Of a stretch of 20,000 nt of DNA, positions 1-20,000 are shown one piece after another (the stretch's first letter is position 1; each line of letters begins with the position of its first letter). This DNA is from an uncultured virus (IMG/VR IMGVR_UViG_3300050019_000387) (taxonomy: Duplodnaviria; Heunggongvirae; Uroviricota; Caudoviricetes), in IMG/VR virus record IMGVR_UViG_3300050019_000387; one strand, written 5' to 3'. A program made the translations under genes and the position numbers. The notes under the pieces are model-generated. The model was not told the DNA's origin, searched no databases, and saw only the letters and a list, made by a program, of their open reading frames with translations.

Positions 1-208
1 CGAGCTCGCCGGGGACCAGCCAGCCGACGCCGCGCGGGCTGTCGGTCAGCTCGACGGACTGGCTTATGGCGAGGATGTCCACCTCGCCGTCGACGCGGTC
101 CTGGGTGATGGTCGTCGCCAATGCGACGACGCTGCCCGGCGAGGATGCGTCGCGCTGGGCGGCCGGGGTCGGGGCGTGTGTCGGGTTGGGGATGGTCAGG
201 GTGTTCAT
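1..208 (-). CDS. Hypothetical protein, N-terminal part (runs off window)
   Basis: ATG at 208 preceded by GGAGG. Reads MNTLTIPNPTHAPTP...ITQDRVDGEVDILAISQSVELTDSPRGVGWLVPGEL and is open to position 1. Confidence 0.7.
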   Translation of the reverse strand, partial: MNTLTIPNPTHAPTPAAQRDASSPGSVVALATTITQDRVDGEVDILAISQSVELTDSPRGVGWLVPGEL

Positions 209-272
209 TTGGAACCTCCGTGTTGTTGGTGGCGCCTTGTTGGCGCGGAATTGGATGTGCTGCGTGGCGCGA

Positions 273-773
273 TCAGGCGCCGGTGCGCAGCGCGCGGGCG
301 AGCAGCCGCTCGCCGCTCTGGATCGCTTCGCGGACCTCGCGGTTTCCTTCCTGGTGCTCCTCGGCGACGTCGAGGAGCAGGCGCAGCGCGCCCCGCTCGC
401 CGGGCCCCAGCGCGACGGGCTGCAAAGTGCCCTCGTCGGGGAGGTCCGGCGCGAAGGTGATCACGACCGTGTTGGTGGCCTCGTGGCGGGTGTTGGTGTC
501 GAGGTCGATGATCGCTTCGGGGCGTTCGCGGATCTCGCTGGAGGCGAGCTCGCTGAGCGTCGCGAGCAGCTCGCGGGGGCTGTCGTCGCAGAACAGCGTG
601 CGTTCGTCGGCGTGCTCGGTGATCGCGACGTATCGCGGGCACTCGATCGCTTCGGGGTCGTTGGTCGGCTGCTCGAGGAGTTCCTCGATGTCACCGCGGC
701 CGTAGCTCTGTGTCGTGTGGGTCTCGGCGAGCTGGCGCAGGCGCGCGAGCCGCTGCTGGTAGTTGGTGGGCAT
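273..773 (-). CDS. Hypothetical protein (166 aa), paralogue of 13028-13633
   Basis: AAGGAGG RBS before ATG 773 (MPTNYQQRLARL). Shares CPxY, ASEI and DLDT motifs with 13028-13633. Confidence 0.85.
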   Translation of the reverse strand: MPTNYQQRLARLRQLAETHTTQSYGRGDIEELLEQPTNDPEAIECPRYVAITEHADERTLFCDDSPRELLATLSELASSEIRERPEAIIDLDTNTRHEATNTVVITFAPDLPDEGTLQPVALGPGERGALRLLLDVAEEHQEGNREVREAIQSGERLLARALRTGA

Positions 774-851
774 GTCGTCCTCCTTGGAGTTGGGTGCACC
801 TGGGGTGCAAGTCAGGGCTGCTTGTTGAGCAGGCGCTACGACTGCGACAGC

Positions 852-877
852 GGCGGGCTGCCACCCGGCGGCTCGCC
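852..877. other. Intergenic hairpin, 11 bp
   Basis: ggcgggctgcc-accc-ggcggctcgcc, with two G.T pairs on the + strand. Confidence 0.55.
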
Positions 878-913
878 CGCGGCGTGTGTTCTCAGCCGGA
901 CGGCGCTGTGGGC

Positions 914-1315
914 TCAGAAGACAGCGAGGCCGCCGTCCTCGGCGGCGCGCAGCGCGAGGACCGCGATAGTCGCGGCGAAATCGAGGCCAGGCGCGGGGTC
1001 GATCCCGTCGATCGGGAGGTAGCAGGCGACTATGTCCTCTGCGGTGGCCGACCGTAGTGCGCGGGCGACCGTGGCGCATTGGTCGGGCGCGAGGTCTCCG
1101 GGCCCGGGTGGCGGCGCGACGCCCTGACTGAAGATGTGCTTGGGCAGATGCGGTGCGAGCCGCTCGAGCAGCGCGTCAAGGAACCACGCGTCTACATTCC
1201 CGCCGCGCCAGGCTCGGCCGTCGGCCGTCGCTGTGCGGTAGCGCTCGAGGCGGTCGGGGTCTTTCTTGTCGTGTAGCGCGTCGCGGATGGTGACGGTGGT
1301 GACACTGATGCCCAT
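914..1315 (-). CDS. Hypothetical protein (133 aa; alternative in-frame TTG start at 1399)
   Basis: GAGGAG RBS before ATG 1315 (MGISVTTVTIRDAL). A second RBS, GAAAGGAGG, precedes the in-frame TTG at 1399. Confidence 0.8.
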   Translation of the reverse strand: MGISVTTVTIRDALHDKKDPDRLERYRTATADGRAWRGGNVDAWFLDALLERLAPHLPKHIFSQGVAPPPGPGDLAPDQCATVARALRSATAEDIVACYLPIDGIDPAPGLDFAATIAVLALRAAEDGGLAVF

Positions 1316-1434
1316 GATGGGTCTCCTCTCAGGTTGTGTCGGCGCAGCCGCGGCATTGCGCTGATGGCTGGTTGAAGCGGTCGTCGCGGTGAAGGACAAC
1401 TTGAACCTCCTTTCTGTGATCGTCGGCTGGGGGC

Positions 1435-1665
1435 TTACTCCTTGTTTGTTTGCTTGTCGTGGGTGGCGGCCTCTTGCTGGCTGCGCTCGCAGCGCCCGCA
1501 TGCCTCGTCGGGGTAGTTCGTCCACGGGTGGTCGTGCTCGGGCTTGGGCTGGCAGGTCCAGCGCAACCCTGCTCGCTCAGCGAGGGTGTTGAGGATCGCC
1601 AGCTCGTCGTCTTTGGCGACTTCGTACATCTGCGCGACTTGGTCGCGGTCGAGTACCAGGGTCAT
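1435..1665 (-). CDS. Small hypothetical protein (76 aa), possible Cys/His metal site
   Basis: AAGGAG RBS. ATG overlaps the upstream TGA (ATGA). Contains WTC...HDHPW...CGRC. Confidence 0.75.
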   Translation of the reverse strand: MTLVLDRDQVAQMYEVAKDDELAILNTLAERAGLRWTCQPKPEHDHPWTNYPDEACGRCERSQQEAATHDKQTNKE

Positions 1666-2054
1666 ATTCTGCTGCTCCTTTTCGCACGCGTGCGTGGCGT
1701 GTCGCGTTGCTGGTTGGTGGTGTTCAGTGGACTGGCGTGAGGTACGGTGCTCGCGGCGTAGCGTTGCTCGGCCCACGCGAGCAGTTCGGTTGCGTCCTTT
1801 GCATCAGCGGCGGTCGGGTACACGAGCGAGTTCGCGGCGACGGTGAAGCACGCGAGCGGGAGCTGTTGCTCGCCTACTGCCGCACGCCACGTCTCGGCGA
1901 GGGTGATTGCGGCGCGGGCTGCGTCGCGCGGATCGTCGTGGCTTTCGATGGGATCGCTGAGCGCTCCGGGACTCATGAAGTCAAGCTCGGTGGCGATCTC
2001 GACGGCGAACGCGCCGTCGTCGTAGATGTAGCTTTGGCGGGAGACGTAGAACAC
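1662..2054 (-). CDS. Hypothetical protein (130 aa)
   Basis: GAAAGGAG RBS before GTG 2054 (MFYVSRQSYIYDDGAFAVEI). Translationally coupled to the next gene. Confidence 0.8.
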   Translation of the reverse strand: MFYVSRQSYIYDDGAFAVEIATELDFMSPGALSDPIESHDDPRDAARAAITLAETWRAAVGEQQLPLACFTVAANSLVYPTAADAKDATELLAWAEQRYAASTVPHASPLNTTNQQRDTPRTRAKRSSRI

Positions 2055-2247: not shown

Positions 2248-2652
2248 TCAGCTGGCGAGAGCGCGCAGCTCGGCGAGCAGCCCGCCGAGCGTGTCCTGGT
2301 TGCTCTGCTCGTCGGCGGTGAGGGTCTGCTCGAGCAGTTCGATCGCGCGCCGGATTCTGGCGCGGTCAACGATCAGCGGAGTGTCGATCGGGTCGGCCGC
2401 CCACTCCTTGGGCAGTCGGTTGAGCTCGGCGAAATGCCAGTGCTCGCGGTGCAGCTCACGGCAGTCCAGAGCGACTTCCTCGATGTCGAGCAGCGGGCCG
2501 TAGGCGTGTGTGCCCTCGGCGCCCTCACCGACGAGCAGCATGAGGGCGCCGCGTTCTGTGCCGCTCGGGTTGCCGGGTGTGCTCGGCGCTCTCGGCTGTG
2601 CGGCGAGCGCCGGGTTTCTTGTGGTCCTGCAGTCCATGTGTGTATCCGCCAT
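2248..2652 (-). CDS. Hypothetical protein (134 aa), probably also translated independently from an internal RBS
   Basis: GAAAGGAG RBS before ATG 2652 (MADTHMDC...GALMLLVGEG...DTLGGLLAELRALAS). Confidence 0.6.
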   Translation of the reverse strand: MADTHMDCRTTRNPALAAQPRAPSTPGNPSGTERGALMLLVGEGAEGTHAYGPLLDIEEVALDCRELHREHWHFAELNRLPKEWAADPIDTPLIVDRARIRRAIELLEQTLTADEQSNQDTLGGLLAELRALAS

Positions 2653-3177
2653 GGGGTGGCTCCTTTCTTTGTTGCAGAGGTATTTGCGGCTCGCCGCGGC
2701 GGGTGCCCCGATCGAGATTTCACTCAACGGCGGGATCGGGTTCTGTTTCAACTCGTCCGGCAGTTTTTGCACCCACGCCACGCCCTCATCGGTCTGCAAC
2801 CCGTGGCTGATCGTCATCTCCGGCTCGTAGTCGTGGGCGTACCGGAGCAGCTTTGTCGCGACACCTCGCCCTCGAGCGTCCGGGTTGACTTCGACGTGCG
2901 CGATCACAGCGTCCTTGCCCGTAGTGTTGAGCGATAGGAGTCCTAGCCGTTCACCAGTCTGGGGATCCTCTGCGCTGAAGGTGTAGTTGTAGCCGCCGGG
3001 TACAGTGTCGCCGCCAGTGCTGAAGTGCAGCCCGTATCGGGCATCTTCCTCGGCCGGGGTCCACTGCCACGCGGGGTTGATCTTTGGCGTCGTCGCCGCT
3101 ACGGGGGCTGTGTCGTGCTCGGCGAGCGCGTTGAGCGGCTCGCGCGTGCGCTTGGCCGCGAGGTCATCGGGAAGCAT
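2248..3177 (-). CDS. GNAT-family N-acetyltransferase fused in frame to an unknown C-terminal module (309 aa)
   Basis: GGAAAGGA RBS before ATG 3177. Acetyl-CoA motif A (VIAHVEVNPDARGRGVATKLLRYA) and downstream T-D-E-G-x-x-W. No stop before the internal start at 2652. Confidence 0.75.
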   Translation of the reverse strand: MLPDDLAAKRTREPLNALAEHDTAPVAATTPKINPAWQWTPAEEDARYGLHFSTGGDTVPGGYNYTFSAEDPQTGERLGLLSLNTTGKDAVIAHVEVNPDARGRGVATKLLRYAHDYEPEMTISHGLQTDEGVAWVQKLPDELKQNPIPPLSEISIGAPAAASRKYLCNKERSHPMADTHMDCRTTRNPALAAQPRAPSTPGNPSGTERGALMLLVGEGAEGTHAYGPLLDIEEVALDCRELHREHWHFAELNRLPKEWAADPIDTPLIVDRARIRRAIELLEQTLTADEQSNQDTLGGLLAELRALAS

Positions 3178-3214: not shown

Positions 3215-4120
3215 TTAGATGCCGAGGGCGAGCTGGACGTCGCGGGCCGGGGGGTGGCGTGCCTGCTCAGCGGCAAGCAGGTCGCGCTCGCGCCGATGGG
3301 CGGCGAGGAGTCCCTCAAGGTCAGCGACTTGCCAGTCGCGCTCGCGGACTCGGGTTCGGATCTCCTCGGCGAGCCGGTCGGCGCTGCCGGCGGCCTTGAC
3401 TGCCCACATGAACTCGCGCTCGTGATCGGCGACCCTCAGCAGCCCGGCGTCGTGTAGGGCGGTGAGGGCCTGGTAGTCGGGGTTGGTGTGCGCGAGCAAC
3501 CAGGGCGTTCCGACCCCACTTTCGCTGGCGGATGTCGGCTTCGGCCACGCGCGGCGCAGCGCGTCGGGGAGGTCTTTGAGCGTTCGCTGCCTGCTGCCGG
3601 CGGGCCTCCAGGCGGGGCCAGCGACGGGGATCTGCAACAGCTCGCCGGTGTGTACGTCGAGAACTTCCCGCTCCTCGCAGCTGCCGCCGAGGTAGCAGAC
3701 GAGGCGCTCACCGTGGTCTCTGTGCTCAAGGCGCCAGATGCTGTAGAGCGAGCCAGGCCCGCTGTCGGGCCACGGCAGGTAGCGATCTCCCCAACGGCGA
3801 GTCCACATCGGCGCTGCCCCGCACGCGGGCCGTGGGATTTCGCACTCCTGACGCTTGCCTTCCCCGTCCCCGTATTCCCACGGGGTGAAGCTCATGCCGC
3901 GAAGCCCGTCTCCGGGGCGGTGGCGCTGCTTGCAGGTACCGCATGCGTACAGGCCCTGCTCGTCGGTCAAGGGCACCGGGCAGCGGCCGGGGTCCTCGAC
4001 ATCGATGAACGTGCCGCCCAGACCCCACGCCGGTGTGACCTGGCCGTTGGTGTGCTCGCGCCAGTAGTGGCCGTGGGGGCAGCGGTGCTCGAGCGTGTCG
4101 TTGCTAAAAACGTCGCTCAT
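3215..4120 (-). CDS. Cys/His-rich putative zinc-binding protein (301 aa)
   Basis: ATG overlaps the upstream stop (TGATG). Contains CPHGH, RCP, CGTCKQRH and ECE..AC. C-terminus is QLALGI. Confidence 0.8.
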   Translation of the reverse strand: MSDVFSNDTLEHRCPHGHYWREHTNGQVTPAWGLGGTFIDVEDPGRCPVPLTDEQGLYACGTCKQRHRPGDGLRGMSFTPWEYGDGEGKRQECEIPRPACGAAPMWTRRWGDRYLPWPDSGPGSLYSIWRLEHRDHGERLVCYLGGSCEEREVLDVHTGELLQIPVAGPAWRPAGSRQRTLKDLPDALRRAWPKPTSASESGVGTPWLLAHTNPDYQALTALHDAGLLRVADHEREFMWAVKAAGSADRLAEEIRTRVRERDWQVADLEGLLAAHRRERDLLAAEQARHPPARDVQLALGI

Positions 4121-4842
4121 CAGGTGTGCTCGATCAGCCGGCGGACGAGCGTGTCAAGGTCGCTTGCTGCGAGCGCGCCGATGAATGCTTGGCGTGTGAT
4201 GGGGTCTAGCCCGTGGCGCTCGGCGGCTTCGAGCAGCAGCTCGCCGACGCGCGTAGCGGCGATGGTGAGGGAGTCGCTGACGGCGGTTGCGGTGCGTGTG
4301 CCGTCGACGGCGAGCGACAGCCACCCATCGAGGGTCTCGGCGAGCTCGTAGAGGGCGTCGTGCTCGGCGTCGTTGCTCTCGCCGTCCAGTGCGCGTTGGG
4401 CGCTCGCGAGCGCGGCAGCGATCTCAGCGGCGCCGATCAGTAGCGAGGGGGTGCCGTCGAGTGGCGTCACGGCCAGTGCGACGGCGGAGGCGATCATGTC
4501 GAGCATCCCCTGGATGTGCGCGTCTTCGTCGTAGCGCAGCACGCCAAAGAGGAGCTGCGGGGTCGGCAACTCGTGATCGATCGCGACTGTCTCGACGCGG
4601 TATGAGGGGCCGCGCTCACCGGGGATGGGTGGTGCGGCACGCTCGAAGACCTCGCCACAGAGCCTGATCGAGCAGTGGCGCGGCTGGAAGTTGCAGGCGA
4701 TCGCGAAGAGCGTCGTGTGGTCGGAGCCACGACGGACGTAGACCGTGTGGTGTGTGATGAGGCACTCGACGTTCTCGGCTCCGGGGCCGGCGGTCGCGGC
4801 ACGCTCGATTCGGTCGAGCAGCTGCGATTCAAAACTCTCCAT
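4120..4842 (-). CDS. Hypothetical protein (240 aa)
   Basis: GAAAGGA RBS before ATG 4842. Coding-like composition. Helical C-terminal segment ALDGESNDAEHDALYELAETL. Confidence 0.8.
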   Translation of the reverse strand: MESFESQLLDRIERAATAGPGAENVECLITHHTVYVRRGSDHTTLFAIACNFQPRHCSIRLCGEVFERAAPPIPGERGPSYRVETVAIDHELPTPQLLFGVLRYDEDAHIQGMLDMIASAVALAVTPLDGTPSLLIGAAEIAAALASAQRALDGESNDAEHDALYELAETLDGWLSLAVDGTRTATAVSDSLTIAATRVGELLLEAAERHGLDPITRQAFIGALAASDLDTLVRRLIEHT

Positions 4843-4928: not shown

Positions 4929-5357
4929 TCAGCGTCTGGCGGCGGCAAAGCGCTCGGCGACTACCTCGGACGCTGGTCGCTCTTCGGACGCGAGGACGGC
5001 TTCGAGCGCGACTTCGACGCCGCCGAGCGTGTCGTGGTCGTCGGGGCAGATCTTGCTGACCGCAGCCCTAAGCAACAGGTCGATGAGCCTGTGGCTGTCG
5101 GCCACTGTTGGGCGTGGGTACTCGCCGGGCGTGAGGGCGCCCGGGGGTGCGCTCACGGCGTCAAGCGCGATTTGGAAGCCCCTGCGCCTCGCGCGGTCGC
5201 TCGGCTCGAGTTCTGAGTCGGGGAGCTCGCGAGGCTCACTGGTCTCTGGGTCGACGATCTCGCGGGGCTCGACCGATCCGTCGGCTCCTATCAGCATCAG
5301 CACGATCAGCTCTTGCGGGTCCTCGCTGGCGAGCCGCAGGCGGGGGAACTCAGGCAT
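4929..5357 (-). CDS. Hypothetical protein (142 aa)
   Basis: GAAGGA RBS before ATG 5357. Has a DTLGG motif like 2248-2652. Confidence 0.8.
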   Translation of the reverse strand: MPEFPRLRLASEDPQELIVLMLIGADGSVEPREIVDPETSEPRELPDSELEPSDRARRRGFQIALDAVSAPPGALTPGEYPRPTVADSHRLIDLLLRAAVSKICPDDHDTLGGVEVALEAVLASEERPASEVVAERFAAARR

Positions 5358-5502
5358 GTGTTTTCCTTCCCTTGGGGACGAGGTGTTTGGCGGCCGTCAT
5401 CGGCGCGCTGGGTTGAAGTGCGGCTGGTAGTCGGGGCCGCGGCGTTCGCGGCTCAGTCGGCCGCGCGGGTTCTCTCATCAGCACCGCCGGGTCCGCGCAG
5501 GC

Positions 5503-5571
5503 GCGGGTTTGACCTATACGGCGGCGGCTACGGCTCGAAGATCGGCGGCGTGTCGGAGATTTCAAACCCGC
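5503..5571. repeat. 10 bp perfect inverted repeat with 49 nt spacer
   Basis: gcgggtttga (5503-5512) and tcaaacccgc (5562-5571). Confidence 0.7.
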
Positions 5572-5645
5572 CCACACGGGCGATCTGCGCCAGCTGCTGG
5601 CGTGGGTGTGGTGCGCGCGCTACTTCGGCGCATCGTTTCGCGGGC

Positions 5646-6209
5646 TCAGTTCGCGTGGGGGTCCTCCGCGGTGGCGCGCAGCCCGGCGCCTGCGACATGG
5701 CCCTCGTCGCCCGCGAACTGGGGGTGGTTGTTGGTGACCCACAGTGCGAGCGTCTGCAGTGCGATCCGTTCGAGCGGGTGGGTCTGACCGGGGGCCATGT
5801 CGCCGGGGATTCCCGGCAGCAGCGTGGCGACGCGCTCCCAGAAAGCGTCGAGCGCGCTCTCGGTGATCTGGCTCACCACCTTGATCGACATCTCCGAACT
5901 GAGGAGGAACTCGCCGACCTCGCCGAAGTAGATCGGCTGGTTGACGTCCCCGTGGCCGATCGAGCCGTCCTCGCGGAGCGCGAACACCTCTCCGTGCGGG
6001 TAATGGTGAGCGCCGTCCTCGACGACCGCGAAATACTCGCCGTACCCGTCGAGGGCCACGTGCAGCGTACTGGTGGGCGGCAGGTGCTCAGTGAGCGTGG
6101 TGAGCGTGGCCATGAGCCGACTCGGCGGTGTCCCGGCGAGCCGGGCCCCGTCTCCGAGGTACTTCTCGGCCTCGGCAACGTCGGCGATGACTGAGATGCG
6201 TGCAGGCAT
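5646..6209 (-). CDS. Hypothetical protein (187 aa)
   Basis: GAAAGGA RBS before ATG 6209. C-terminal part reads ALDAFWERVATLLPGIPGDMAPG...LWVTNNHP. Confidence 0.8.
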   Translation of the reverse strand: MPARISVIADVAEAEKYLGDGARLAGTPPSRLMATLTTLTEHLPPTSTLHVALDGYGEYFAVVEDGAHHYPHGEVFALREDGSIGHGDVNQPIYFGEVGEFLLSSEMSIKVVSQITESALDAFWERVATLLPGIPGDMAPGQTHPLERIALQTLALWVTNNHPQFAGDEGHVAGAGLRATAEDPHAN

Positions 6210-6302
6210 CGGTTGGTCCTTTCATCAGGGTTGGACTACAAACGGCGCCGCGGGACACGCCGCGCGTCAGGGCGCATTCGGGTTGCTCGCGGCGGACGTG
6301 GG

Positions 6303-6608
6303 TTAGTCGAGGTCCTCGAGAAGCACCCTGGCCGTCCACGGCAGGACGTCATCGAGGGCGCGCTGCCAGCGCGACCAGTCATCCGGCCAGGCGCCGTTGA
6401 ATGGTGGGGCCGCCCAGGCGCGCACGGCGTCGCGGCAGGCGAGGATCACCCGCTCGGGGTCCTTGCTTTTGACGGCGCGGGTCAGTGCCGCCTTCTGCCG
6501 GGCAAACAGCGGTCGGCAGGCTTGGTAGTCGGGTTTGGGCGCGGCGGTGGCGCGCTGATCGCCGCGCTCTCGCGCTCGGTCGAGGATCGTTTGTACCTCG
6601 CTGGACAT
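6303..6608 (-). CDS. Hypothetical protein (101 aa)
   Basis: GAAGGAG RBS. Contains RQKAALTRAVK...GAWPDDWSRWQRALDD. Confidence 0.85.
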   Translation of the reverse strand: MSSEVQTILDRARERGDQRATAAPKPDYQACRPLFARQKAALTRAVKSKDPERVILACRDAVRAWAAPPFNGAWPDDWSRWQRALDDVLPWTARVLLEDLD

Positions 6609-6626: not shown

Positions 6627-7376
6627 TCAGACGTTGTGGAGCCACTGGCGCAGGCTTCTCAGCAGCGCCCGTGTTGTGCGCGTCGTCGTGGTTGTGGGAC
6701 TGGCGGTTGGCGGAGGTGTTGGCGTCTCTGCCGGCTCGCGAATGACCCATCCGCCGCCGATCGTCGGCTCGTCAGCGACGAACCCCGCTGTCCACACGAT
6801 CGTGTGACCGGCGGCGCGCAGACGGGTGAGCGCGGCCTGCCAGCGCTTCTCGTCCCAGTTGTAGATGCACGCGGCGAAGCGGCCGCTGCGGGTGCGCCCA
6901 CGGATGTGTCCCAAGGCGCGCGCGTCGTCAGCCTGCTCGCGCTCGCGGCGACTGGCCGCGTCATTGCCTTCGGCGTGTTGCAGCAGGCGCAGCATCGGAA
7001 CGAGCTGGTCGGCGCGAGCGAGCACCGCCTCGATCGCTTCAAAACACGCCGTGTCGGTCGTTGCGCCATCGGAGAGGCGATCGGCCTCGATCGGGTAGGT
7101 CGCGATCTGGCGCTTGTACGCCGGTCCCAACGGGTCGACGTGGTCCTCGCGCACAGCGATCAGCAGTGATTCGTCGCGGTCGTAGGTCACCAGTTCGACG
7201 TTGTCGGGACCGCTGATCGCGCCGCTGTCGTGCGCGTCCCGCACGCGGTCGTGAATCGCACGGGCGAGCCGGCGCGATTCGCTGAGGTGGAGCCGCGGGT
7301 CGGTTTCGTACTCGTTGGTGATGTAGCTGCGAAGCTGCTCGCGGTCGAGCCGGAACGCTTCGTCGCGTCTGCTCAT
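6627..7376 (-). CDS. Hypothetical protein (249 aa); N-terminal domain paralogous to 7446-7856
   Basis: GAAAGGA RBS. Contains EAFRL, RVRDA..GAISGP.N, RQIAT and EAIEAVL. Confidence 0.85.
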   Translation of the reverse strand: MSRRDEAFRLDREQLRSYITNEYETDPRLHLSESRRLARAIHDRVRDAHDSGAISGPDNVELVTYDRDESLLIAVREDHVDPLGPAYKRQIATYPIEADRLSDGATTDTACFEAIEAVLARADQLVPMLRLLQHAEGNDAASRREREQADDARALGHIRGRTRSGRFAACIYNWDEKRWQAALTRLRAAGHTIVWTAGFVADEPTIGGGWVIREPAETPTPPPTASPTTTTTRTTRALLRSLRQWLHNV

Positions 7377-7445
7377 GTGACGTGTCCTTTCGTCGTTGAT
7401 GGGTCGGACGCCGGTGCGACAGCACGCGCGCCGCGGGGAAGTCGC

Positions 7446-7856
7446 CTACAGGCCGGTGGCCTGCAGAGCGCGCAGCAGCGGCAGCAGTTTGGTCGCGTGT
7501 TCGAGGACCGCCTCGACGGCCTCCCGGGATGCCCGGTAGCTCCCGTCGTCGAGGATCAGTTCGCGGGTCTCGAGTGAGAACGTGGCGACCTGGCGCTGCT
7601 GGGTGCAGAGCGGTTTGGTTTCCTCGCGCACGCAGACGATGAGCGAGTCGCCGACCGCGTAGGTCTGGACCGCGGTGTTCTCGGGGCCGCTGACCGCTCC
7701 GCATTCGACAGCGTCGCGGACGCGCCGATCAAGCGCGCTGGCGAGCCCTTCTTCCTCGTAATGGTTGATGCCTTCGGCGCTGCCGTAGTCGGCGCGTACC
7801 TCGGACAGCAGTGTGCTTCGGTTGAGGCGGAACGCCTCGCGTGCTGCTCGAGCCAT
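7446..7856 (-). CDS. Hypothetical protein (136 aa), tandem paralogue of 6627-7376
   Basis: GAAAGGAG RBS. Contains EAFRL, RVRDA..GAVSGP.N, RQVAT and EAVEAVL. Confidence 0.85.
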   Translation of the reverse strand: MARAAREAFRLNRSTLLSEVRADYGSAEGINHYEEEGLASALDRRVRDAVECGAVSGPENTAVQTYAVGDSLIVCVREETKPLCTQQRQVATFSLETRELILDDGSYRASREAVEAVLEHATKLLPLLRALQATGL

Positions 7857-8453: not shown

Positions 8454-8533
8454 CTGGTTCCTCTCACTTCGAAGGGTGGTCAAAGGGCGCGGGTTCGGGC
8501 GAGAGGTCCGGTCGGGCGCCGGCCGGTGTGGCG

Positions 8534-8800
8534 CTAGACGAGCGCGAGTTGCTCGTTTTCGATTGCCGCCCACCAGCCGTCGAAGCCGGGCAGCGCCTTC
8601 TCCTGGGCGCTGGCGGGCCTGCGACGACGAAACGTCTCGCGCGTGGGCAACTCGCTCCTGCGGCGTAGCCTGTAGACGCGCTCGATCCCGTCGTGGGTGT
8701 CGATGAGGCCGAGCGAGCCGACGCGCTGCTCGCATTGGGCTCGGGTGCCGTGCGCGAGGACGCGCAGGTCGCGGTTTGCGATGTGGCGAGGCGGGGCCAA
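8534..8800 (-). CDS. Small hypothetical protein, start uncertain (possible 5' frameshift)
   Basis: Coding-like frame (DLRVLAHGTRAQCEQRVGSLGLID...GWWAAIENEQLALV). TTG 8800 has no RBS, and the GTG 8826 coupled to the ardC stop is out of frame. Confidence 0.5.
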   Translation of the reverse strand: MAPPRHIANRDLRVLAHGTRAQCEQRVGSLGLIDTHDGIERVYRLRRRSELPTRETFRRRRPASAQEKALPGFDGWWAAIENEQLALV

Positions 8801-12549: not shown

Positions 12550-12705
12550 GGTGTCTCCTTGGTTAGTCCTGATTGGTGGTGGCGCGGTCGCGCGCGGTGC
12601 GCAAGCGTGCGGAGGCATCGCCGTGGCCTTGCAGGGCCGCGGCGGGGACGACGGGTGTGTGAGCCGGGTCGGCTTGAGCGTGTGGCGCTCGTGCGCCAGG
12701 CGCGC

Positions 12706-12975
12706 TTAGCGCGCGGTGCGGGCGAGCTCGAGCGCGACGCGCCGCAACGGGATGCCGAGTTGGCGGCGAGCGTGATCGAAGCGGTTGCGCCGGCGCCCGT
12801 AGATGAGGGGCAAGAGCGGTAGCACGGCGCGCAGCAGCGGTGAGATTTGCTGTTCGAGTTCGTCTTGGAGCGCGCGTGAGATGGCGCAGCGGAAGCGGTA
12901 GTGCGCGAGCAACTTGCGCGTGGCGGCGCGGCGCTGGCGCTTGCCCGGTTGGGTGTGAGTCGGGGTGTGGTTCAT
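12706..12975 (-). CDS. Small basic hypothetical protein (89 aa)
   Basis: AAGGAAGG RBS before ATG 12975. Arg/Leu-rich and probably helical. Confidence 0.6.
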   Translation of the reverse strand: MNHTPTHTQPGKRQRRAATRKLLAHYRFRCAISRALQDELEQQISPLLRAVLPLLPLIYGRRRNRFDHARRQLGIPLRRVALELARTAR

Positions 12976-13027
12976 TAGTGCCCTTCCTTGGTTTGCGATT
13001 GATGTGGGCTGGGTGTTGTGGCTGCGG

Positions 13028-13633
13028 TTAGGGCGCGCTGATCGCGCGGGTCTGGTAGGTGGCGTGCGGGCCAGCGCGGTCGAAGTACACGCCGACGCGG
13101 GCGGCCGGGTCGGTGGGCATCGCGGGGCCGCGCTTGGGCAGCTGCGCCCAGTGCGCGCGCGCCCATTCGGCGAGCACGAGGACCGCGTCGGTGTCGTTGC
13201 TGGCGAGCCGGTATTCGGTGGTGTCGGCTTCGGTGACGATCACGAGCACCAACTCGCGATCCCCGCCGGTGTTGTAGCCGTCGAAGCTGACACCGGTCTC
13301 AAGCTCGGCGGGGTAGCGCTGGCCGGTGTCGAGGTCGACCATTGCGATCGGGGTGATCGGGATCTCGCTGGCCGCACCGTTGGCGAGCTCGTCGGCGACC
13401 GCCTTGACACTGTCGCCAAGGGTGATCGCGTGGTCGCTGGACTCGCTGATGATGCCGGCGTAGCTCGGGCAGCTCGCGTTTGCGCCGGCGGGGTCTTGTT
13501 TGAGGGTGTCGCCGATGAGCGACTCGAGCCAGTGCTCGGCAATCCGTGGGGTGGCGGCGATCAGCTCGTTGAGTCGGCGCAGCCGCTCGCGGGCGTTCTC
13601 GCTGCGCTTGGGATCAGGGGGTGCGTGGGTCAC
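13028..13633 (-). CDS. Hypothetical protein (201 aa), paralogue of 273-773
   Basis: GGAAAGGA RBS before GTG 13633. Contains CPSY, ASEI and VDLDT motifs. Confidence 0.8.
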   Translation of the reverse strand: MTHAPPDPKRSENARERLRRLNELIAATPRIAEHWLESLIGDTLKQDPAGANASCPSYAGIISESSDHAITLGDSVKAVADELANGAASEIPITPIAMVDLDTGQRYPAELETGVSFDGYNTGGDRELVLVIVTEADTTEYRLASNDTDAVLVLAEWARAHWAQLPKRGPAMPTDPAARVGVYFDRAGPHATYQTRAISAP

Positions 13634-13694
13634 TGTGTCCTTTCCGTTGCTGGGCGCATGAGTGCGGGTCGCGGCGTTGAGTTCAGTGCTGTGC

Positions 13695-14393
13695 TTAGGC
13701 GGCCTCGCGAGCCCACTCGAGGACGGTGTCGGGCGGCTCGGAGTAGTTGGCGCCGATCGTGTCGGCGAGGGTCGCGTCGGGGTTGGCGAGGAGGTAGAGC
13801 GCGTCGTTGAGGAGCAGCTGCAGGAGGTCGCGGGCCCCGGTGTCGCCAGCGTCGACCGCGTCGAGAATCCGCTCCAGCGAGCTATCGATTGCGGCCCGGA
13901 TTTGCGTCTTGCTGTAGCTGCGTGCATCGCCGGAGACTCCTTCGCTGTTGGTGATGTACGGGGTCTGGCGCTGGAGAGTGAGCTCGGCCGGCTCAACGGT
14001 TTCGTGGAGCTCGCTGTCACCCGCCCGGTTGACGGTCCACTCGGTGGGGGTGCCATCAGCGTTGAACGCTTCGCCCTCATCGCCTTGTTTTGCCAGTAGC
14101 GTCGCTCCGCGTAGGCGTAGCTCGACGGGCGCGGCGTCGGATCCGTCGTAGGCCCATTCGGCGAGCGCGCGGGCTTGCGCGGCGCTGCGTGGGATCCGCC
14201 CAGCGGTAGGCGCCATGCGCTCGCGGCTGTACTGCTGGTAGCCGGCGCGGTCAAGCTCGCCGTAGTCGAGCCCTTCGCGGTCGCAGAGGTGGCGCACCTC
14301 GGCGAGCAGCTTCACGCTCGCGGCCACCAGTCGCCCGCGCGTCCTGTTGTTGTCGCCGCTGGGTGCGGCAGGGGTGCTGTTGGTAGGGGTCAT
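13695..14393 (-). CDS. Hypothetical protein (232 aa)
   Basis: GGAAAGGA RBS before ATG 14393. N-terminal helical motif LLAEVRHLCDREGLDYGELDRAGYQQY. Ends WAREAA. Confidence 0.8.
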   Translation of the reverse strand: MTPTNSTPAAPSGDNNRTRGRLVAASVKLLAEVRHLCDREGLDYGELDRAGYQQYSRERMAPTAGRIPRSAAQARALAEWAYDGSDAAPVELRLRGATLLAKQGDEGEAFNADGTPTEWTVNRAGDSELHETVEPAELTLQRQTPYITNSEGVSGDARSYSKTQIRAAIDSSLERILDAVDAGDTGARDLLQLLLNDALYLLANPDATLADTIGANYSEPPDTVLEWAREAA

Positions 14394-14433: not shown

Positions 14434-15828
14434 TCACGCGGCGATCGCCAGTGCCGGCGCGGCGGCCTGGCTGTCCGGGTCGTAGAGGTCGCGGAAGCGC
14501 GGGACGGTTAGCGTTGGGTCGTTGCGCAGCGCGCAGTTGAGGGCGTGCTCGATGAGCCGGCGGGTGAGCTGACCGGGGTGGCTGGTCCCGCCGCGGGCGA
14601 GGATCTGCCCGACGATCGTGCGGTTCAGCCCGACGATCTCCGCAGTCCGGGTGATGCCGCCGTATTGGCACGCGCGCGCGGCGAGCCACGCGACGAACGG
14701 CCGGGAGTCGACGAGCTCGCGCTGCGCGCCGGCGAGCGTGAGCGTCAGCGCCGCTTCGCGCTGCTGGGAGCGCTTTTTGGAGTGCGCATAGCAGTGGCGC
14801 TCACCGGGGAGCGCGTGGTTTCGACAGCGCTTGCCGGTCCGCTTCGTCGTAGCGCGGCAGCGAGGGCGCAGGCCGCCGCGGCGCTGACGCGCAACCTCAC
14901 GCGTGTAGGCCGCCTGGTGGCGGTGAATTGACATGCCGTGGCGGTAGTTGGCCGCGATCGTTGCCTGGCGCTGCTCGCGGGCGGACCAGCCGTTGCGCTG
15001 GAATTGCTGCTGCAGGGTGCTGGCTAGCGAGCGGTCGCTGCGGTAGCCGAGGCTTGGCCAGCGCGCGCGCAACAGACGGGCGATCCGCAGAAACCCGTAG
15101 TGGCAGCTGTAGTAGCGCCACGCCGCCTCCCACATCACGCGTGTGGGCAGTGGTCCTTGGTACTCCGGTGGGCTTGAGTGCAGGTTGCCCGCGGGAGCAC
15201 CGGTTGGCTCTGCCGGTTCGGCGGGTTTAGGGGCGGGCGCGGGTTTGAGCGCGCGAAGGGGTGTCGGCTGGCGCCGCGGCGGGCGTGGGCGCGGCTTGCT
15301 TTGGCGGCCGCGGGCAGCGGTTCGCGGCCGGTCGGGGATCTTTGTCGAGCACCACGCGCAGCGCTCCTCGAGGACCGCGACCTCTTCAGAGCAGGTTGGG
15401 CAGAAGTGCTCCTCAAGCTCGGCGGTGTCGGTGTCCTCGTAGAGTTCCCACATCGCGCTGCCGGCGTGCTCGAGTGCGGCTTCGATGAGATCGGCGGGTG
15501 CCAGCAGCCGGCCGTACTGGTCGTGGTGGGCGCCGTTGTAGGGGGTGTTGGCGCGCCAGTGCTGCAGGCGTCGGCGCGCGTTCTCGCTGCTCCAGCCGAT
15601 GTCGTTGAGCAGCGCCTCAACCCCGCCGGTGCTCTTCAGCGGCTCAAGGCCTCGGCGACGCTGCTCGCGTGCCTGGCGGGTGTCGTGGTCGCGGATGCGC
15701 TGCTCGGCCCAGGCGAGGAACGGTGCGGCGTCGACCGTTGCGCGATCACGCGCGCGCGAAGCGCGCGTCGGTGCGGGTGGCGTTGGTGTGGCGCGGCGGC
15801 GTTTTAGTGGTGTCGGTTGGGCTGCCAC
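14434..15828 (-). CDS. Multidomain putative DNA-binding protein (464 aa): duplicated HTH-like domain, C4 zinc ribbon, C3H finger
   Basis: GAAAGGAGG RBS before GTG 15828. Contains CPTC..CAWC, RCRATTKRTGKRCRNHALPGERHCYAH and HTH-like GGITRTAEIVGLNRTIVGQIL. Confidence 0.7.
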   Translation of the reverse strand: MAAQPTPLKRRRATPTPPAPTRASRARDRATVDAAPFLAWAEQRIRDHDTRQAREQRRRGLEPLKSTGGVEALLNDIGWSSENARRRLQHWRANTPYNGAHHDQYGRLLAPADLIEAALEHAGSAMWELYEDTDTAELEEHFCPTCSEEVAVLEERCAWCSTKIPDRPRTAARGRQSKPRPRPPRRQPTPLRALKPAPAPKPAEPAEPTGAPAGNLHSSPPEYQGPLPTRVMWEAAWRYYSCHYGFLRIARLLRARWPSLGYRSDRSLASTLQQQFQRNGWSAREQRQATIAANYRHGMSIHRHQAAYTREVARQRRGGLRPRCRATTKRTGKRCRNHALPGERHCYAHSKKRSQQREAALTLTLAGAQRELVDSRPFVAWLAARACQYGGITRTAEIVGLNRTIVGQILARGGTSHPGQLTRRLIEHALNCALRNDPTLTVPRFRDLYDPDSQAAAPALAIAA

Positions 15829-16005: not shown

Positions 16006-16293
16006 TCAGTGAGCGGGGAGCGCGATCAGCTCGCGCGCAAGGTTGCGCTCGCCGGCGAATGCGCGGCAGCGCGCGATCGCCTGGCGGAACGCGGGCATCC
16101 CTGCCAGTTCGCGCCGCCCGAGTCCGGCTGCGGCCGCGCTCGCGACGAGGCCTTGCAGTTCGCGTCGCTCCCGCTCAAGTCGGGCGCTTGCGAGCTCGCG
16201 CCGCTCATGCGGGCAGGCCAGGCGGTGGGTCTCCGCCGCCTCGGGGTTGTGCGACCAGTGACCAGGGCGTGCGGATGCGGTGACGTTCTTCAT
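16006..16293 (-). CDS. Small hypothetical protein (95 aa)
   Basis: GGAG RBS before ATG 16293. Confidence 0.6.
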   Translation of the reverse strand: MKNVTASARPGHWSHNPEAAETHRLACPHERRELASARLERERRELQGLVASAAAAGLGRRELAGMPAFRQAIARCRAFAGERNLARELIALPAH

Positions 16294-16438
16294 TTGTGGC
16301 TCCGTTCATGAGTGATGGATCGGACCGCCGTTCGGCGGGGCCCGAAAGGGGTTGCGCTGAGCGGGTCCGTGCCCGGGGGCGCGGGGGGTGTTGGGCTCAG
16401 CGGGTGCTCGCCGCCGTATGGCGCGAGCGGCCGGCGTG

Positions 16439-16618
16439 CTAGACGCCGGGGAGGTACACCGCGCGGCGCATCTGGCATGAGAGCCAGTCGCTGGCGCGCG
16501 GGGTCACTCCGCGCAGCAAGGCGCGCGGGGTAAACAGCTCACTCAGGTCCGGTTCGACGTTGCGCGCAGCGTCGGCGGCGACGTCGGTGTTGCTGGGGGC
16601 CGTATCCTTGGATATCAT
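16439..16618 (-). CDS. Small hypothetical protein (59 aa)
   Basis: GGAG RBS in an A/C-rich leader before ATG 16618 (MISKDTAPSNTD). Confidence 0.5.
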   Translation of the reverse strand: MISKDTAPSNTDVAADAARNVEPDLSELFTPRALLRGVTPRASDWLSCQMRRAVYLPGV

Positions 16619-17078: not shown

Positions 17079-18308
17079 CTATTCGCAGGGGTTTGCGGCG
17101 AGCGGGCGGATGAATTGGACGGCGCGGTCGCGGGCGGGGTCACCGTGGTCGCCGACGCAGGCGACGATGGTTGGTTGCTGGTCGCCGTCGGCGGGGCTGG
17201 GGTACAGATACACGTCGGTCCTTTGCCCGTCGGCGTGCAGGGTGTAGCCAGCGATGCCGCGGTCGATGAACGGGACGTAGCGTGCACGGGATTGGTCGGC
17301 CGCGGTGACGGCGAGCGTCTCGCAGATCATGCGCTGGGCGGCGGGCTGCGGGCGGAGTGTCTCCTCGGGCGCGCTCGAGGTTGCCGTCACGGTCGCAAGC
17401 TTCGCGATCGCAGGCGATGTCTCTCCGGTTGCAGTGCCTGGCGTCGTGCTCAGCGCAGCGGGCGGGGCGTCAGGAATGGCGTGCAGCGCCAGCCGCTCGG
17501 GCGAGCCGCCATGGCACGAGCGCCGCGTACGAGGGCGCGCTGCGGGAGGGACGGTCTCCTGCTCCGGACTCGTGATATCCGCTGCCGGCATGGTCTGGAT
17601 GACCGGGTTGCGTGCGGGCCGGGGACGCAGGAGCGCGGCGATGTCGCGGGCGGGAATCTCGACCGTGCGATCGGCGTGTTCGCGCAGCTTGCCTGAGATC
17701 CCAAAGCGCTCGGGAGTGAGGATCGTGATCAGCACGCCCGCGTCGCGGGCTACCTCGATTGCCGGGGCGAAGTCGCTGTCACCGATGAGCAGCAGAGCGT
17801 GGCCGATCGCGCCCCGGTCGGCGAGCCGTACGAGATCGATCGCGAGCGTGATATCGACGCCCTTCTGGCGCAGCCTCGGGCCCAGTGGGCAGTGCTCTTC
17901 GAAGCGCTCGATCTTGACCCCGCACGCGTCGAGGCCACTACGGACGTCGTTCTGCCAGTCGGGTGTGATCTCGCTCAGGAAGCCGAGGCGGGTCTGCACG
18001 AGGTCGAGCTCGCCGATCGCATGCAGGAAGCGCAGTTGGGCCTCGGCGCGCGGGTGTCTGGCGTCAAACGCGCCGTCGTACCAACCGACGCGCTCGCACT
18101 CCCCGCATTCGGCGCTGCCGAGGGGGCCGTCGCGCAGCCAGTCGCGCACGCGCTCGACGTCGAGGCGCTGTTGCATCGGTCGGAGTCCGAGGGCTCGACA
18201 GGCGGCGCGCTGCAGGTAGTTGGCGTCGACGAAGGCCATCGTCGGCGGGTGGTGGTGGAGTCGGGGCCACGGCACGGGTGCCGTGCGCGCAGCCGAGGGA
18301 CTGGACAT
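17079..18308 (-). CDS. NYN domain (LabA/DUF88, PIN fold) putative ribonuclease with Pro/Ala/Thr linker and C-terminal unknown domain (409 aa)
   Basis: GAAAGGAG RBS before ATG 18308. Acidic motifs AFVDANY, WYDG, QKGVDITLAID, GDSDFAP and LREHAD. Confidence 0.88.
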   Translation of the reverse strand: MSSPSAARTAPVPWPRLHHHPPTMAFVDANYLQRAACRALGLRPMQQRLDVERVRDWLRDGPLGSAECGECERVGWYDGAFDARHPRAEAQLRFLHAIGELDLVQTRLGFLSEITPDWQNDVRSGLDACGVKIERFEEHCPLGPRLRQKGVDITLAIDLVRLADRGAIGHALLLIGDSDFAPAIEVARDAGVLITILTPERFGISGKLREHADRTVEIPARDIAALLRPRPARNPVIQTMPAADITSPEQETVPPAARPRTRRSCHGGSPERLALHAIPDAPPAALSTTPGTATGETSPAIAKLATVTATSSAPEETLRPQPAAQRMICETLAVTAADQSRARYVPFIDRGIAGYTLHADGQRTDVYLYPSPADGDQQPTIVACVGDHGDPARDRAVQFIRPLAANPCE

Positions 18309-18320
18309 GTGATGCTCCTT

Positions 18321-18633
18321 TCAGATTGAGAGGGCCGTGTGCCGCCGCGCTGCGGCGACCGGCCGTGGGTGGCTGGTGCTTCTTGGGCTGTACGGCGGCA
18401 CAGCTGCTGACAAGCGTTGCGCGCGCGATGGGACAACGAGCGCCTCGCGTTCCTCCTCCCTGAGCTTGCTCACCTGCTTGTGGGCGGTGATAAAGATCGT
18501 GAAGGCGATGGCGAAGAGCCGGGTTTCCCGCTCGCGGATCAGCGTCGGCAGAATGTCTCCAAAGACCGCCGCCTTGAACTCGTTCGGTATGCTCGGCGTA
18601 GTGGTGCATCACGACGGTCTCGTTGTCGATCAT
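18321..18633 (-). pseudogene. Frameshifted hypothetical gene (or assembly indel)
   Basis: AAGGAG RBS plus ATG 18633 (MIDNETVVMHHY). Near 18590-18605 the protein-like reading moves to another frame with no start (IPNEFKAAVFGDILPTLIRERETRLFAIAFTIF...EREALVV), ending at TGA 18321. Confidence 0.55.
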
Positions 18634-18722
18634 CGTGGGGCTCCTTGGGTCCTCGGTGCGGGTTCGCCCGCTGTGGTGAAGTGCTGGATTGTTCAGTTGC
18701 GCGCAGCGAGAGCATCGGGGGG

Positions 18723-19077
18723 TTAGCGTCCGGTGTCGGCGAGCGCGTACTCGACGAGCCGGTGAGCGAGGGCTTCGGCCTTGTCGAGATCCGCGGCCTG
18801 GCGGACGGTCGCGATGAGCCGGGCGGTGGTCGTGAGGTTCGTTTGACCAGGCGGCGTCCTCGGCGTAGACGGGCACCCGTTCGAGGTAGCCGTTGCCGTC
18901 GCACAGGTCAACGCTGCCTTCGATCCGCGCGCCGTAGAACTTTGAGCCGTCGAGGGCGCTGCGGCTCGGCTTGGTCCACACCCGAAGCGCGACGCTCTCC
19001 AGGTAGCCCGGCCCGAAGCGAAAGAGGCGCGTACGCGAGCGTGGCCGCCGCTGCTCGCCACGACTGTCGCCGCTCAC
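18723..19077 (-). pseudogene. Frameshifted hypothetical gene (or assembly indel)
   Basis: GTG 19077 frame reads LFRFGPGYLESVALRVW...LERVPVYAEDAAW. Near 18845 the coding-like reading moves to NLTTTARLIATVRQAADLDKAEALAHRLVEYAL, ending at TAA 18723. Confidence 0.55.
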
Positions 19078-19246
19078 GCGCCGCCGCGCAGCGACAGCGC
19101 GAGCATCGCGTGCTCCTCGCGCACCGCAGGCTGAGCCGCCGCGCCGCTGCGCAGCGGCTGCGGGCCAGTCGGCGTTTCACTGCTCTCACTCGCTGATTCA
19201 CCGTTCACACTCCTTTTCGTTTGCTGTGCTTGGTCCTTCTGTGAGG

Positions 19247-19510
19247 TCACTCGCTCAAGAGGCCGATAGCCGCGCCGGGGATGAGGTAAAGGCGTTCGTA
19301 GTCCCCGGGCGTGTCGCTGTAGGGAATCCCTCGCTCAAGTGCGGTGATGATCTCCTGCGCCTCGACGCTCTCTAGGCCGAGCGTCTCCTCGAGTTCATCG
19401 CTGTGCAGGTAACTGGCTCGTATCGCGCGCTCGGGCGCGACGGCGGGGTCCTCGTCGACCACCACGCGCAGCACCAGTGCTGCCAGGTCGCCGGATGGTG
19501 TTGCTCCCAT
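19247..19510 (-). CDS. Small acidic hypothetical protein (87 aa)
   Basis: GAAGGAGG RBS before ATG 19510. Confidence 0.8.
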   Translation of the reverse strand: MGATPSGDLAALVLRVVVDEDPAVAPERAIRASYLHSDELEETLGLESVEAQEIITALERGIPYSDTPGDYERLYLIPGAAIGLLSE

Positions 19511-19619
19511 CTGTGTCCTCCTTCTTGGATCTGTCGAGCTGCTCGGCTGGTTTCACTGAGCACCGCGCGTTCGCGCGGCGGTGGAAGCCGAAGTTGCGTG
19601 CTAGCTCCGTTCCTTGCGC

Positions 19620-20000
19620 TTACCACTCGAACTGCGGCAGCGCGTCGACTACCTCGGCGTCGGCGTCGAAGTTGATCCACTGGCAGTCGAGGGCGCGTGC
19701 GTAGCGCAAGCACGCCACGACTGACGGACAGCGCTCCTGGAGCGCGTCGAGCGTGATCTCGTCGTCGTCGGTCCCGGGCACGTTGACCCAGGCACCCCAC
19801 TCGTGGCGGATCGTGCGCGGCCCGGCCGAGCTGGTCGTCAGGGCAATGACTGCGTCGAGCTCACCGGGACTGGTGTGCGCGGTTGACAGATCGAGGTAGC
19901 GATAGACGGCGGCGCGGGTGACCCACGGTCCGTGGCGACGCTGTAGCGCACTGGCGAGCTTCGCGCCAGCCGTCCTGAGTGGGCGTGTGATGTTGTGCAC
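19620..20000 (-). CDS. DUF5983-like hypothetical protein (5' end may lie outside window)
   Basis: Pattern LDLSTAH...HEWGAWV.V...LRYARALDCQWINFDADA..VDALPQFEW. Family assignment is from recollection, not a search. Confidence 0.6.
   Translation of the reverse strand: MHNITRPLRTAGAKLASALQRRHGPWVTRAAVYRYLDLSTAHTSPGELDAVIALTTSSAGPRTIRHEWGAWVNVPGTDDDEITLDALQERCPSVVACLRYARALDCQWINFDADAEVVDALPQFEW

What the first reader, a model, noticed from the sequence alone, without database searches (positions are those of the whole stretch)
1..20000. 20 kb single-strand array of about 30 small genes around ardC: candidate actinobacterial leading-region anti-defence island
Seen: every credible gene is on the minus strand, most have their own strong RBS, most products are unknown, and ardC, a NYN nuclease, a GNAT and zinc-finger proteins are interspersed. 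Established: ArdC is a conjugative-plasmid antirestriction/ssDNA-binding protein, and leading regions concentrate co-oriented anti-defence genes. Inference: the unknown genes are a pool of uncharacterised anti-restriction, anti-CRISPR or host-takeover candidates from a high-GC host.
Basis: partly seen in the sequence, partly recalled or inferred. Interest (0 to 1): 0.75.

Follow-up and report, generated by a model that had tools for sequence, protein, structure and literature searches.

The report
Giant one-way accessory array of ICE
This stretch is part of a 72-kb run of same-direction genes whose closest relatives sit inside conjugative elements in soil Solirubrobacterales chromosomes, so it is likely not a virus but a gene bank that likely helps the element settle in a new host, although only one of its 29 genes in this window is a known anti-restriction gene.

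Summary
Observation largely confirmed. All 29 genes called in the window are on the minus strand, 22 have a Shine-Dalgarno motif, and Pfam names only ArdC, NYN, GNAT and DUF5983. The array is not 20 kb: 85 of 87 genes on the 72-kb record are co-oriented. They include a DarB-like protein, four more methyltransferases, ParB-like proteins, UvrD, recombination nucleases, a ligase and CsrA. No virion or transfer gene was found. The record is an IMG/VR 'provirus' cut from a longer contig. Its closest relatives are tRNA-bounded, integrase-bearing elements in two Solirubrobacterales genomes. They have a Gram-positive-type T4SS and a coupling-ATPase/MOBC-type relaxase fusion, followed by a co-oriented array of about 47 or 95 kb with ssb at its far end. 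The window matches the variable, relaxase-proximal part. So 'conjugative element, high-GC host' is supported. 'Leading region around ardC' is not shown: oriT was not found, both relatives lack ardC, and the array runs away from the relaxase. No unknown protein could be tied to anti-defence by profile or fold. Verdict: establishment-type array of an apparently undescribed ICE family; anti-defence role of the unknowns is inferred.

The parts
1..20000 (-). Variable 5' part of a co-oriented array of at least 72 kb; it continues left for 52 kb on the record and probably right beyond the trimmed end
1..208 (-). 5' end of a 226-aa unknown gene; 80% identical homologue in G001; paralogue of 11935-12549
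273..773 (-). 166-aa unknown, present in both relatives (65-66%); weak paralogue of 13028-13633
914..1315 (-). 133-aa unknown; weak phrog_26638 hit
1435..1665 (-). 76-aa unknown, present in both relatives (65-71%)
1662..2054 (-). 130-aa unknown, no homologue in the relatives
2248..3177 (-). GNAT domain (aa 66-118) in frame with a second module that has its own SD and ATG at 2652; likely two genes fused
3215..4842 (-). Coupled pair, 240 aa and 301 aa, unknown; syntenic in G002 (70-75%)
4929..6608 (-). Three unknown genes: 4929-5357, 5646-6209, 6303-6608
6627..7856 (-). Tandem paralogues 7446-7856 (136 aa) and 6627-7376 (same module plus a second one); family also in G002 and G396
7869..8800 (-). 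Unknown genes 7869-8453 and 8534-8800, each with a homologue in one relative
8823..9806 (-). ArdC: ArdcN (E 7e-33) plus MPTase-PolyVal (E 8e-32), HEHVH at residue 213; not found in G001 or G002
10011..10808 (-). Mosaic gene: first 83 aa shared with another gene of the record; last 80 aa is a stand-alone gene in both relatives (phrog_31172)
10863..11819 (-). 318-aa four-module protein with a zinc-ribbon module; modules occur as stand-alone proteins elsewhere; paralogue on the record; marker that found the relatives
11935..14393 (-). Four unknown genes: 11935-12549, 12706-12975, 13028-13633, 13695-14393; three share a module with another gene of the record
14434..15828 (-). 464-aa basic protein with CxxC pairs; paralogue on the record and homologue in G001; structured leader 15829-16005 (z -5.5)
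16006..16618 (-). Small gene pair (59 aa, 95 aa), similar to pairs near the 5' end of both relatives' arrays; hairpin leader at 16642-16673
17079..18308 (-). NYN-domain protein (E 3e-11), present in both relatives, with an appended C-terminal part
19247..19510 (-). 87-aa acidic unknown with strong SD
19620..20000 (-). DUF5983 protein; the record ends on its GTG

Best explanation
The window is part of a co-oriented gene run of at least 72 kb that likely belongs to a large integrative conjugative element (ICE) of a Solirubrobacterales bacterium, and the run likely works as the element's establishment array, expressed on arrival in a new host. Shown in two relatives: tRNA-derived direct repeats, an integrase, a Gram-positive-type T4SS, a coupling-ATPase fused to a Replic_Relax (MOBC-type) domain, and then the array. 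Inferred: after transfer the array is transcribed transiently and translated efficiently from its strong SD sites and host-like codons. A conserved part (methyltransferases, DarB-like, Mom-like, ParB-like, primase-like, UvrD, Rad52-like, PD-(D/E)XK, ligase, ssb) would protect the DNA and complete it to double strand. The variable part in the window would supply interchangeable host-directed proteins, of which ArdC is one. The element's own annealase/exonuclease pairs would shuffle genes and modules between copies.
For: No structural phage family among 92 ORFs. The record is a 'provirus' cut-out, CheckV 33%, ending on gene boundaries, from a 115,166-bp contig. 19 of 29 window genes and 50 of 58 other genes have homologues in G001 or G002, up to 84-98% identical, while viral contigs give 47% or less, or nothing. 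G001: integrase (PF00589, E 1e-34) beside a perfect 47-bp tRNA-His repeat, TcpC, VirB4-like, CHAP. G002: tRNA-Lys 49-bp repeat, integrase (phrog_1, E 5e-9), TraG P-loop, Replic_Relax E 4e-10, on a contig with 16S rRNA and rplB. The ATPase profile hits TrwB (E 2e-4). Arrays are 126 of 130 and 51 of 54 co-oriented, with SD in 76 of 130 and 32 of 54 genes against 49 of 220 and 88 of 325 outside. CAI of array genes exceeds T4SS and cargo genes in both hosts (p 2e-4 or lower). Mosaicism: 14 paralogue pairs on the record, 8 involving window genes; DNA blocks of 71-96% against G001.
Against: The record itself has no relaxase, T4SS or integrase, so ICE membership rests on two relatives. No oriT was located. 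Only 1 of 29 window genes is a known anti-defence gene, and both relatives lack it. G001's Replic_Relax (24.9 bits) and TcpE scores are just under Pfam's cut-offs, and no Pfam VirD4 model scored. Array CAI equals or is slightly below host flank genes (0.596 vs 0.629 in G001; 0.563 vs 0.563 in G002), on only 15 and 12 reference genes, some mis-started. No sigma-70-type promoter was found. The repeat-bounded intervals (280 and 216 kb) may be tandem islands, not single elements. Nothing here shows expression or transfer.
Confidence: 0.72

Rival explanations
1. Canonical F-like leading region: oriT lies just beyond ssb, the template strand enters first, and the genes are read from single-stranded promoters. 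The window would be the far end of an unusually long leading region.
For: ssb, methyltransferases, DarB-like and ParB-like genes cluster towards the 3' end, the gene classes named in PMC11541004. Some leaders fold well (z -5.5, -3.8). The template strand is G/T-rich.
Against: No oriT or relaxase near ssb in G001 or G002. The skew at fourfold sites matches ribosomal-protein genes (-0.29, -0.36) and is near zero in co-oriented T4SS genes, so codon choice can explain it. The window is over 55 genes from that end; PMC11541004 found enrichment in about the first 30. That paper saw no leading-region enrichment for MOBC.
Confidence: 0.2
2. pLS20-like geometry: oriT lies just downstream of the relaxase, so the window's part enters early but as the non-template strand and is expressed after second-strand synthesis by zygotic induction. 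This is a sub-case of the best explanation.
For: Window homologues lie about 15-27 kb (G002) and 17-66 kb (G001) downstream of the relaxase. 10 of 11 fetched relaxase regions have ssb or the primase-UvrD block downstream and co-oriented. PMC8708921 states that pLS20 transfers the non-template strand of its establishment genes.
Against: In pMET1 and CloDF13 the order is oriT-mobB-mobC, with oriT upstream (PMC2262945 passages). No conserved non-coding block was found downstream of the relaxase, and 10 kb of cargo intervenes in G002.
Confidence: 0.35
3. Early region of a large temperate phage or phage-plasmid, as the IMG/VR label implies.
For: IMG/VR provirus label. Helicase, ligase, exonuclease, DarB-like and Mom-like genes have PHROG hits. 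ArdC occurs in phiCbK-like phages. One domain resembles a Gordonia phage protein (E 4e-3).
Against: No virion gene in 92 ORFs. The close relatives carry T4SS and relaxase genes; in the flanking genes scanned with Pfam no virion family appeared. Viral contigs hold only distant homologues.
Confidence: 0.07
4. Conjugative megaplasmid of the same family, or a decaying island in which most unknown ORFs are neutral passengers.
For: No integrase on the record. The C5 methyltransferase is split into two ORFs here and whole in G002. Fused and partial genes are common, and a relative in run X2 has 211- and 242-nt deletions.
Against: The provirus call implies host-like flanks, and both relatives are integrated. 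Coding density is about 86%, with kept SD sites and codon bias.
Confidence: 0.13

Closest known systems
Leading-region anti-defence islands (Samuel et al. 2024, PMC11541004)
   Same: One-strand cluster with anti-restriction genes, orphan methyltransferases, darB, ssb and many unknown genes.
   Different: Far longer (85 or more genes against about 30 enriched positions); lies downstream of and co-oriented with the relaxase; relaxase is MOBC-type, a class that paper dropped for lack of enrichment; no psiAB, Acr or umu family hit; oriT and ssDNA promoters not found.
Establishment genes of pLS20/p576 Bacillus plasmids (PMC8708921, PMC6294495)
   Same: Gram-positive conjugative element, ardC inside a highly variable cluster, conserved transfer genes kept apart.
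   Different: No long repeated upstream element in this record; integrated; much larger; extra recombination and repair block.
T4SS-type actinobacterial ICEs (PMC3429521)
   Same: tRNA 3'-end integration, tyrosine integrase, VirB4, coupling protein.
   Different: Those were found with TrwC (MOBF) relaxases; here a coupling-ATPase/Replic_Relax fusion in Solirubrobacterales. The passages seen do not mention such elements.
MOBC elements pMET1, ICEKp1, CloDF13 (PMC2262945; PF13814 = MobC in PMC5357655)
   Same: Coupling protein next to a MOBC relaxase, ardC downstream.
   Different: MobB and MobC are separate genes there, and ardC is single and oppositely oriented in pMET1.
ArdC of R388/pSa and polyvalent proteins (PMC7213743, PMC5512222)
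   Same: ArdcN plus MPTase with HExxH; GNAT, ParB, methylase-helicase and primase domains in the same element; module accretion.
   Different: At most 47% identical to any ArdC seen; modules are mostly separate small genes or short fusions.

Membership tests
ArdC | ArdcN plus zincin MPTase domain with HExxH | tested here: met
ArdC | ssDNA binding and relief of restriction in the recipient | not testable with these tools
   known for R388 ArdC (PMC7213743, start of abstract)
ICE (this record) | Integrase, att sites, T4SS and relaxase on the same element | tested here: inconclusive
   none on the 72-kb record, which is a trimmed part of a 115-kb contig
ICE (relatives G001, G002) | Integrase next to a tRNA-derived direct repeat | tested here: met
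ICE (relatives G001, G002) | VirB4-like ATPase, coupling protein and relaxase | tested here: met
   G001 relaxase score just under cut-off; coupling-protein call rests on Walker A and a TrwB hit at E 2e-4
ICE (relatives G001, G002) | Excision and transfer | not testable with these tools
   no experiment possible
Leading-region anti-defence island | Adjacent to oriT, on the side away from the relaxase | tested here: inconclusive
   oriT not found; array lies downstream of the relaxase gene
Leading-region anti-defence island | Genes on one strand | tested here: met
   85 of 87
Leading-region anti-defence island | Transferred strand is the template | not testable with these tools
   needs nic mapping; skew is explained by codon choice
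Leading-region anti-defence island | Anti-restriction, methyltransferase and ssb genes | tested here: met
   ArdC, DarB-like and four more methyltransferases on the record; ssb in relatives, not on the record
Leading-region anti-defence island | Frpo/ssi single-stranded promoters | tested here: inconclusive
   a few structured leaders; no promoter consensus; no comparison with known Frpo sequences was made
Tailed prophage | Capsid, portal, terminase, tail or lysis genes | tested here: not met
   0 of 92 ORFs; the record is partial

The most novel reading that the evidence does not exclude
Solirubrobacterales carry a widespread, undescribed ICE class whose coupling ATPase and MOBC-type relaxase are one polypeptide (58 of 401 genomes match). 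Some members have grown the longest establishment arrays known, 50-100 kb, placed downstream of the relaxase and diversified by their own recombinases. This would explain why oriT/relaxase-based surveys saw no leading-region signal for MOBC, and it would offer dozens of new counter-defence or host-takeover protein families.
Probability: 0.3. Interest if true: 0.75.

Novelty: new variant of a known kind. Interest (0 to 1): 0.5.

Why it matters
It extends establishment and anti-defence islands to an abundant, little-studied soil lineage and to MOBC-type elements, which the main survey excluded. The G001 interval also holds a large polyketide cluster, so such elements may move biosynthetic genes. 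The window gives about 25 uncharacterised, translation-ready genes for screens. It also shows a conjugative element filed as a provirus in a viral database. The concept itself is established, and no new function is shown here.

Tried and rejected
DNA repeats and tRNAs in the window: only weak chance-like repeats, no tRNA; Rfam found nothing in the record. PADLOC: domain-level hits in 3 of 62 proteins, no system. oriT search by conserved intergenic DNA across 14 fetched regions: no shared block near relaxases or ssb apart from the near-identical pair G136/G247. A hairpin-plus-T-tail leader seen seven times in G001 and G002: its model found 0 matches in this record and only the 7 training copies plus 2 weak hits in 1.96 Mb, so it is not part of the window. 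Strand skew as a sign of the transferred strand: rejected as uninformative. 318-aa protein: whole model pLDDT 67, no PDB match; C-terminal domain pLDDT 92, no Foldseek hit at E 0.001 or better, best VIA Z 5.2 (rmsd 2.5, 62 aligned), unremarkable; 34 stand-alone module homologues had no convincing Pfam family. ESM Atlas: only hits under 0.9. G175's 53-gene run was dropped as an analogue: no array homologues, and the few Pfam hits among 18 genes scanned are metabolic or transport. The 278-aa marker gave one full match and four partial ones in 401 genomes. Direct BLAST of the ATPase to a VirD4 failed, as did single-sequence PDB searches. My recollection that ardC is co-oriented with mobC in pMET1-like elements was wrong. 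No RNA holder listed. Earlier-findings look-ups returned nothing.
Full report
Observation. The window is the last 20 kb of a single 72,007-bp record, about 69% GC. A codon-model caller trained on the record found 87 genes, 85 on the minus strand; the two plus-strand calls are weak and outside the window. The window has 29 genes, one added by hand, of 56-464 aa (median 187). 22 of 29 have an SD-like motif, against 9 of 114 internal starts, and AAGGA occurs 39 times on the minus strand and 5 on the plus. The common form GAAAGGA pairs with the 16S 3' end found in 5 of 5 Solirubrobacterales genomes searched. Pfam names 4 of 33 window ORFs: ArdC, NYN, GNAT and DUF5983.

The rest of the record. Searches give a 1646-aa DarB-like methyltransferase-helicase, Dam-like, N6/N4, N6 and C5 methyltransferases (the C5 gene split in two ORFs), a weak Mom-like hit, two ParB-like proteins, weak HNH, two UvrD, two PD-(D/E)XK nucleases, a Rad52-like protein with a weak paralogue, an ATP-dependent ligase, a CHC2-finger primase-like protein and CsrA. 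None of 92 ORFs hit a virion, lysis, integrase, relaxase or T4SS family. The record is an IMG/VR provirus call with CheckV 33%. It starts on a stop codon and ends on a start codon, and the window's own protein is on record on a 115,166-bp contig. It is therefore a cut-out.

Relatives. The 318-aa protein has 15 database homologues, two being this record's own. Its alignment found two Solirubrobacterales MAG contigs of 1.10 and 2.22 Mb, one short metagenome contig and no viral contig. 19 of 29 window genes (14 over at least 70% of their length) and 50 of 58 other genes have homologues in these two elements. G001 has a run at about 103-198 kb with 126 of 130 genes co-oriented; G002 has one at 1,520-1,567 kb with 51 of 54. 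Both have ssb at the far end. Upstream lie TcpC, TcpE-like, VirB4-like and CHAP genes in G001, a TraG-type P-loop ATPase in G002, and in both a large protein with a Walker A motif and a C-terminal Replic_Relax domain. A profile of nine such ATPase domains hits TrwB (E 2e-4); PF13814 is equated with MobC in PMC5357655 (passages). G001 has an integrase beside a perfect 47-bp tRNA-His repeat, with the partner 280 kb away. G002 has a 49-bp tRNA-Lys repeat 216 kb apart and an adjacent integrase on a contig with 16S rRNA and rplB. The fusion protein matches 58 of 401 genomes sampled from the order, often with both domains in one frame. I fetched 11 relaxase-bearing regions (G001, G002 and 9 picked for score and contig length): 8 have ssb and 5 have a primase-UvrD block downstream and co-oriented, 10 of 11 have one or the other.

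Is it a leading region? PMC11541004 (first ninth of the text and passages) defines these by an oriT next to a lagging relaxase, finds enrichment in about the first 30 ORFs, finds the genes transcribable from the transferred strand, and dropped MOBC for lack of signal. Here oriT was not found. If it lies beyond ssb, polarity is F-like but the window is at least 52 kb away. If it lies after the relaxase, the window's part enters early as the non-template strand, as PMC8708921 (abstract and first part of the Discussion) reports for pLS20. If it lies before the relaxase, as in pMET1 (PMC2262945 passages), the array is far from either end. ardC is accessory: it is missing from both relatives and found in 7 of 401 genomes. 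One of these, G346, shows the textbook order parB, ssb, ardC, TrwC relaxase, but it is a different element.

Expression and evolution. Array genes prefer C at fourfold sites (skew -0.20 to -0.29 in G000, G001, G002), as ribosomal-protein genes do (-0.29, -0.36), and T4SS genes do not. Their CAI is above T4SS and cargo genes, but equal to or slightly below host flank genes; the reference sets were only 15 and 12 genes. This agrees in direction with PMC13478746 (abstract and one results section). The array is mosaic: 14 paralogue pairs, a 3,006-nt block 95.6% identical to G001 among blocks of 71-93%, and genes built of modules that stand alone elsewhere. That the encoded annealase/exonuclease pairs cause this is inference, by analogy with Bet/Exo of SXT ICEs (recalled). 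Module accretion in conjugative elements is described in PMC5512222 (passages).

Function of the unknown genes. Nothing was shown. Profile scans, two atlas searches and fold searches on one protein and its best-modelled domain gave no link to a known counter-defence protein. Only two of about 25 unknown proteins were examined beyond profiles. ArdC's role in bypassing recipient restriction (PMC7213743) and a plasmid CsrA homologue that reprogrammes its host (PMC9928087) were seen only as search listings with the start of the abstract. PMC6294495 was seen as abstract; PMC11104534, PMC12282955 and PMC3429521 as passages. No supplement was read; the family table of PMC11541004 may cover some of these genes.

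Novelty. Searches pairing Solirubrobacterales or Thermoleophilia with ICE terms, and one for fused relaxase-coupling proteins, listed no paper describing these elements. I saw only the top 15-20 rows of each, and the library is partial. The kind of system is known. The host lineage, the fused MOBC-type transfer protein, the length and the position of the array appear to be a new variant. Confidence: ICE origin about 0.8; establishment role 0.72; that many of the window's unknowns are counter-defence proteins about 0.35.

Noticed in passing
L016:9275-13516 (G001) and L039:7406-10321 (G002): TrwB-like coupling ATPase fused to a Replic_Relax (MOBC-type) domain; 58 of 401 genomes of the order match; in G001 a membrane-protein part is fused as well.
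   Followed up: partly
L003:16018-16218 (record 51018-51218), just left of the window: CsrA homologue (Pfam E 2e-21), also in G001's array; may act on host translation or on the array's own AAGGA-rich leaders (untested).
   Followed up: no
G001:C5 about 203-292 kb (L022-L026): Large type I polyketide cluster (recognised by eye; tailoring genes by Pfam) inside the tRNA-His-bounded interval.
   Followed up: no
L018:1723, 2263, 17277, 17609; L040:9338, 9667, 10106: Repeated leader (GC hairpin, T tail, second hairpin, SD) before small genes near the 5' end of the arrays; absent from this record.
   Followed up: partly
window 16642-16673: 14-pair hairpin with a T tail on the plus strand, upstream of the 59-aa gene; could end an antisense transcript.
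   Followed up: no
G001 173-182 kb; G148 825-834 kb; G253 696-703 kb; G396 757-762 kb: Conserved SNF2 helicase, AAA_5 ATPase and unknown-gene block in four arrays; not found on this record.
   Followed up: no
G346:C4 80.8-93.5 kb (L077, L078): Separate TrwC (MOBF) element with textbook parB-ssb-ardC-relaxase order.
   Followed up: partly
L039:16726-17148 (G002): Rifampin ADP-ribosyltransferase (Arr) gene in cargo between relaxase and array; a PIN/Phd toxin-antitoxin pair sits inside the same array.
   Followed up: no
record 41942-43820 (L003): C5 methyltransferase in two ORFs here, one 622-aa gene in G002.
   Followed up: no
record 1-7047 against G001 115-122 kb and 197 kb: The primase-UvrD-Rad52 block follows the ligase here but lies near the start of G001's array, where a nuclease fragment remains before ssb: a rearrangement.
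   Followed up: no
window 10866-11216; P0020-P0053: A 100-aa domain family with over 20 stand-alone members, confident model, no known fold match.
   Followed up: yes
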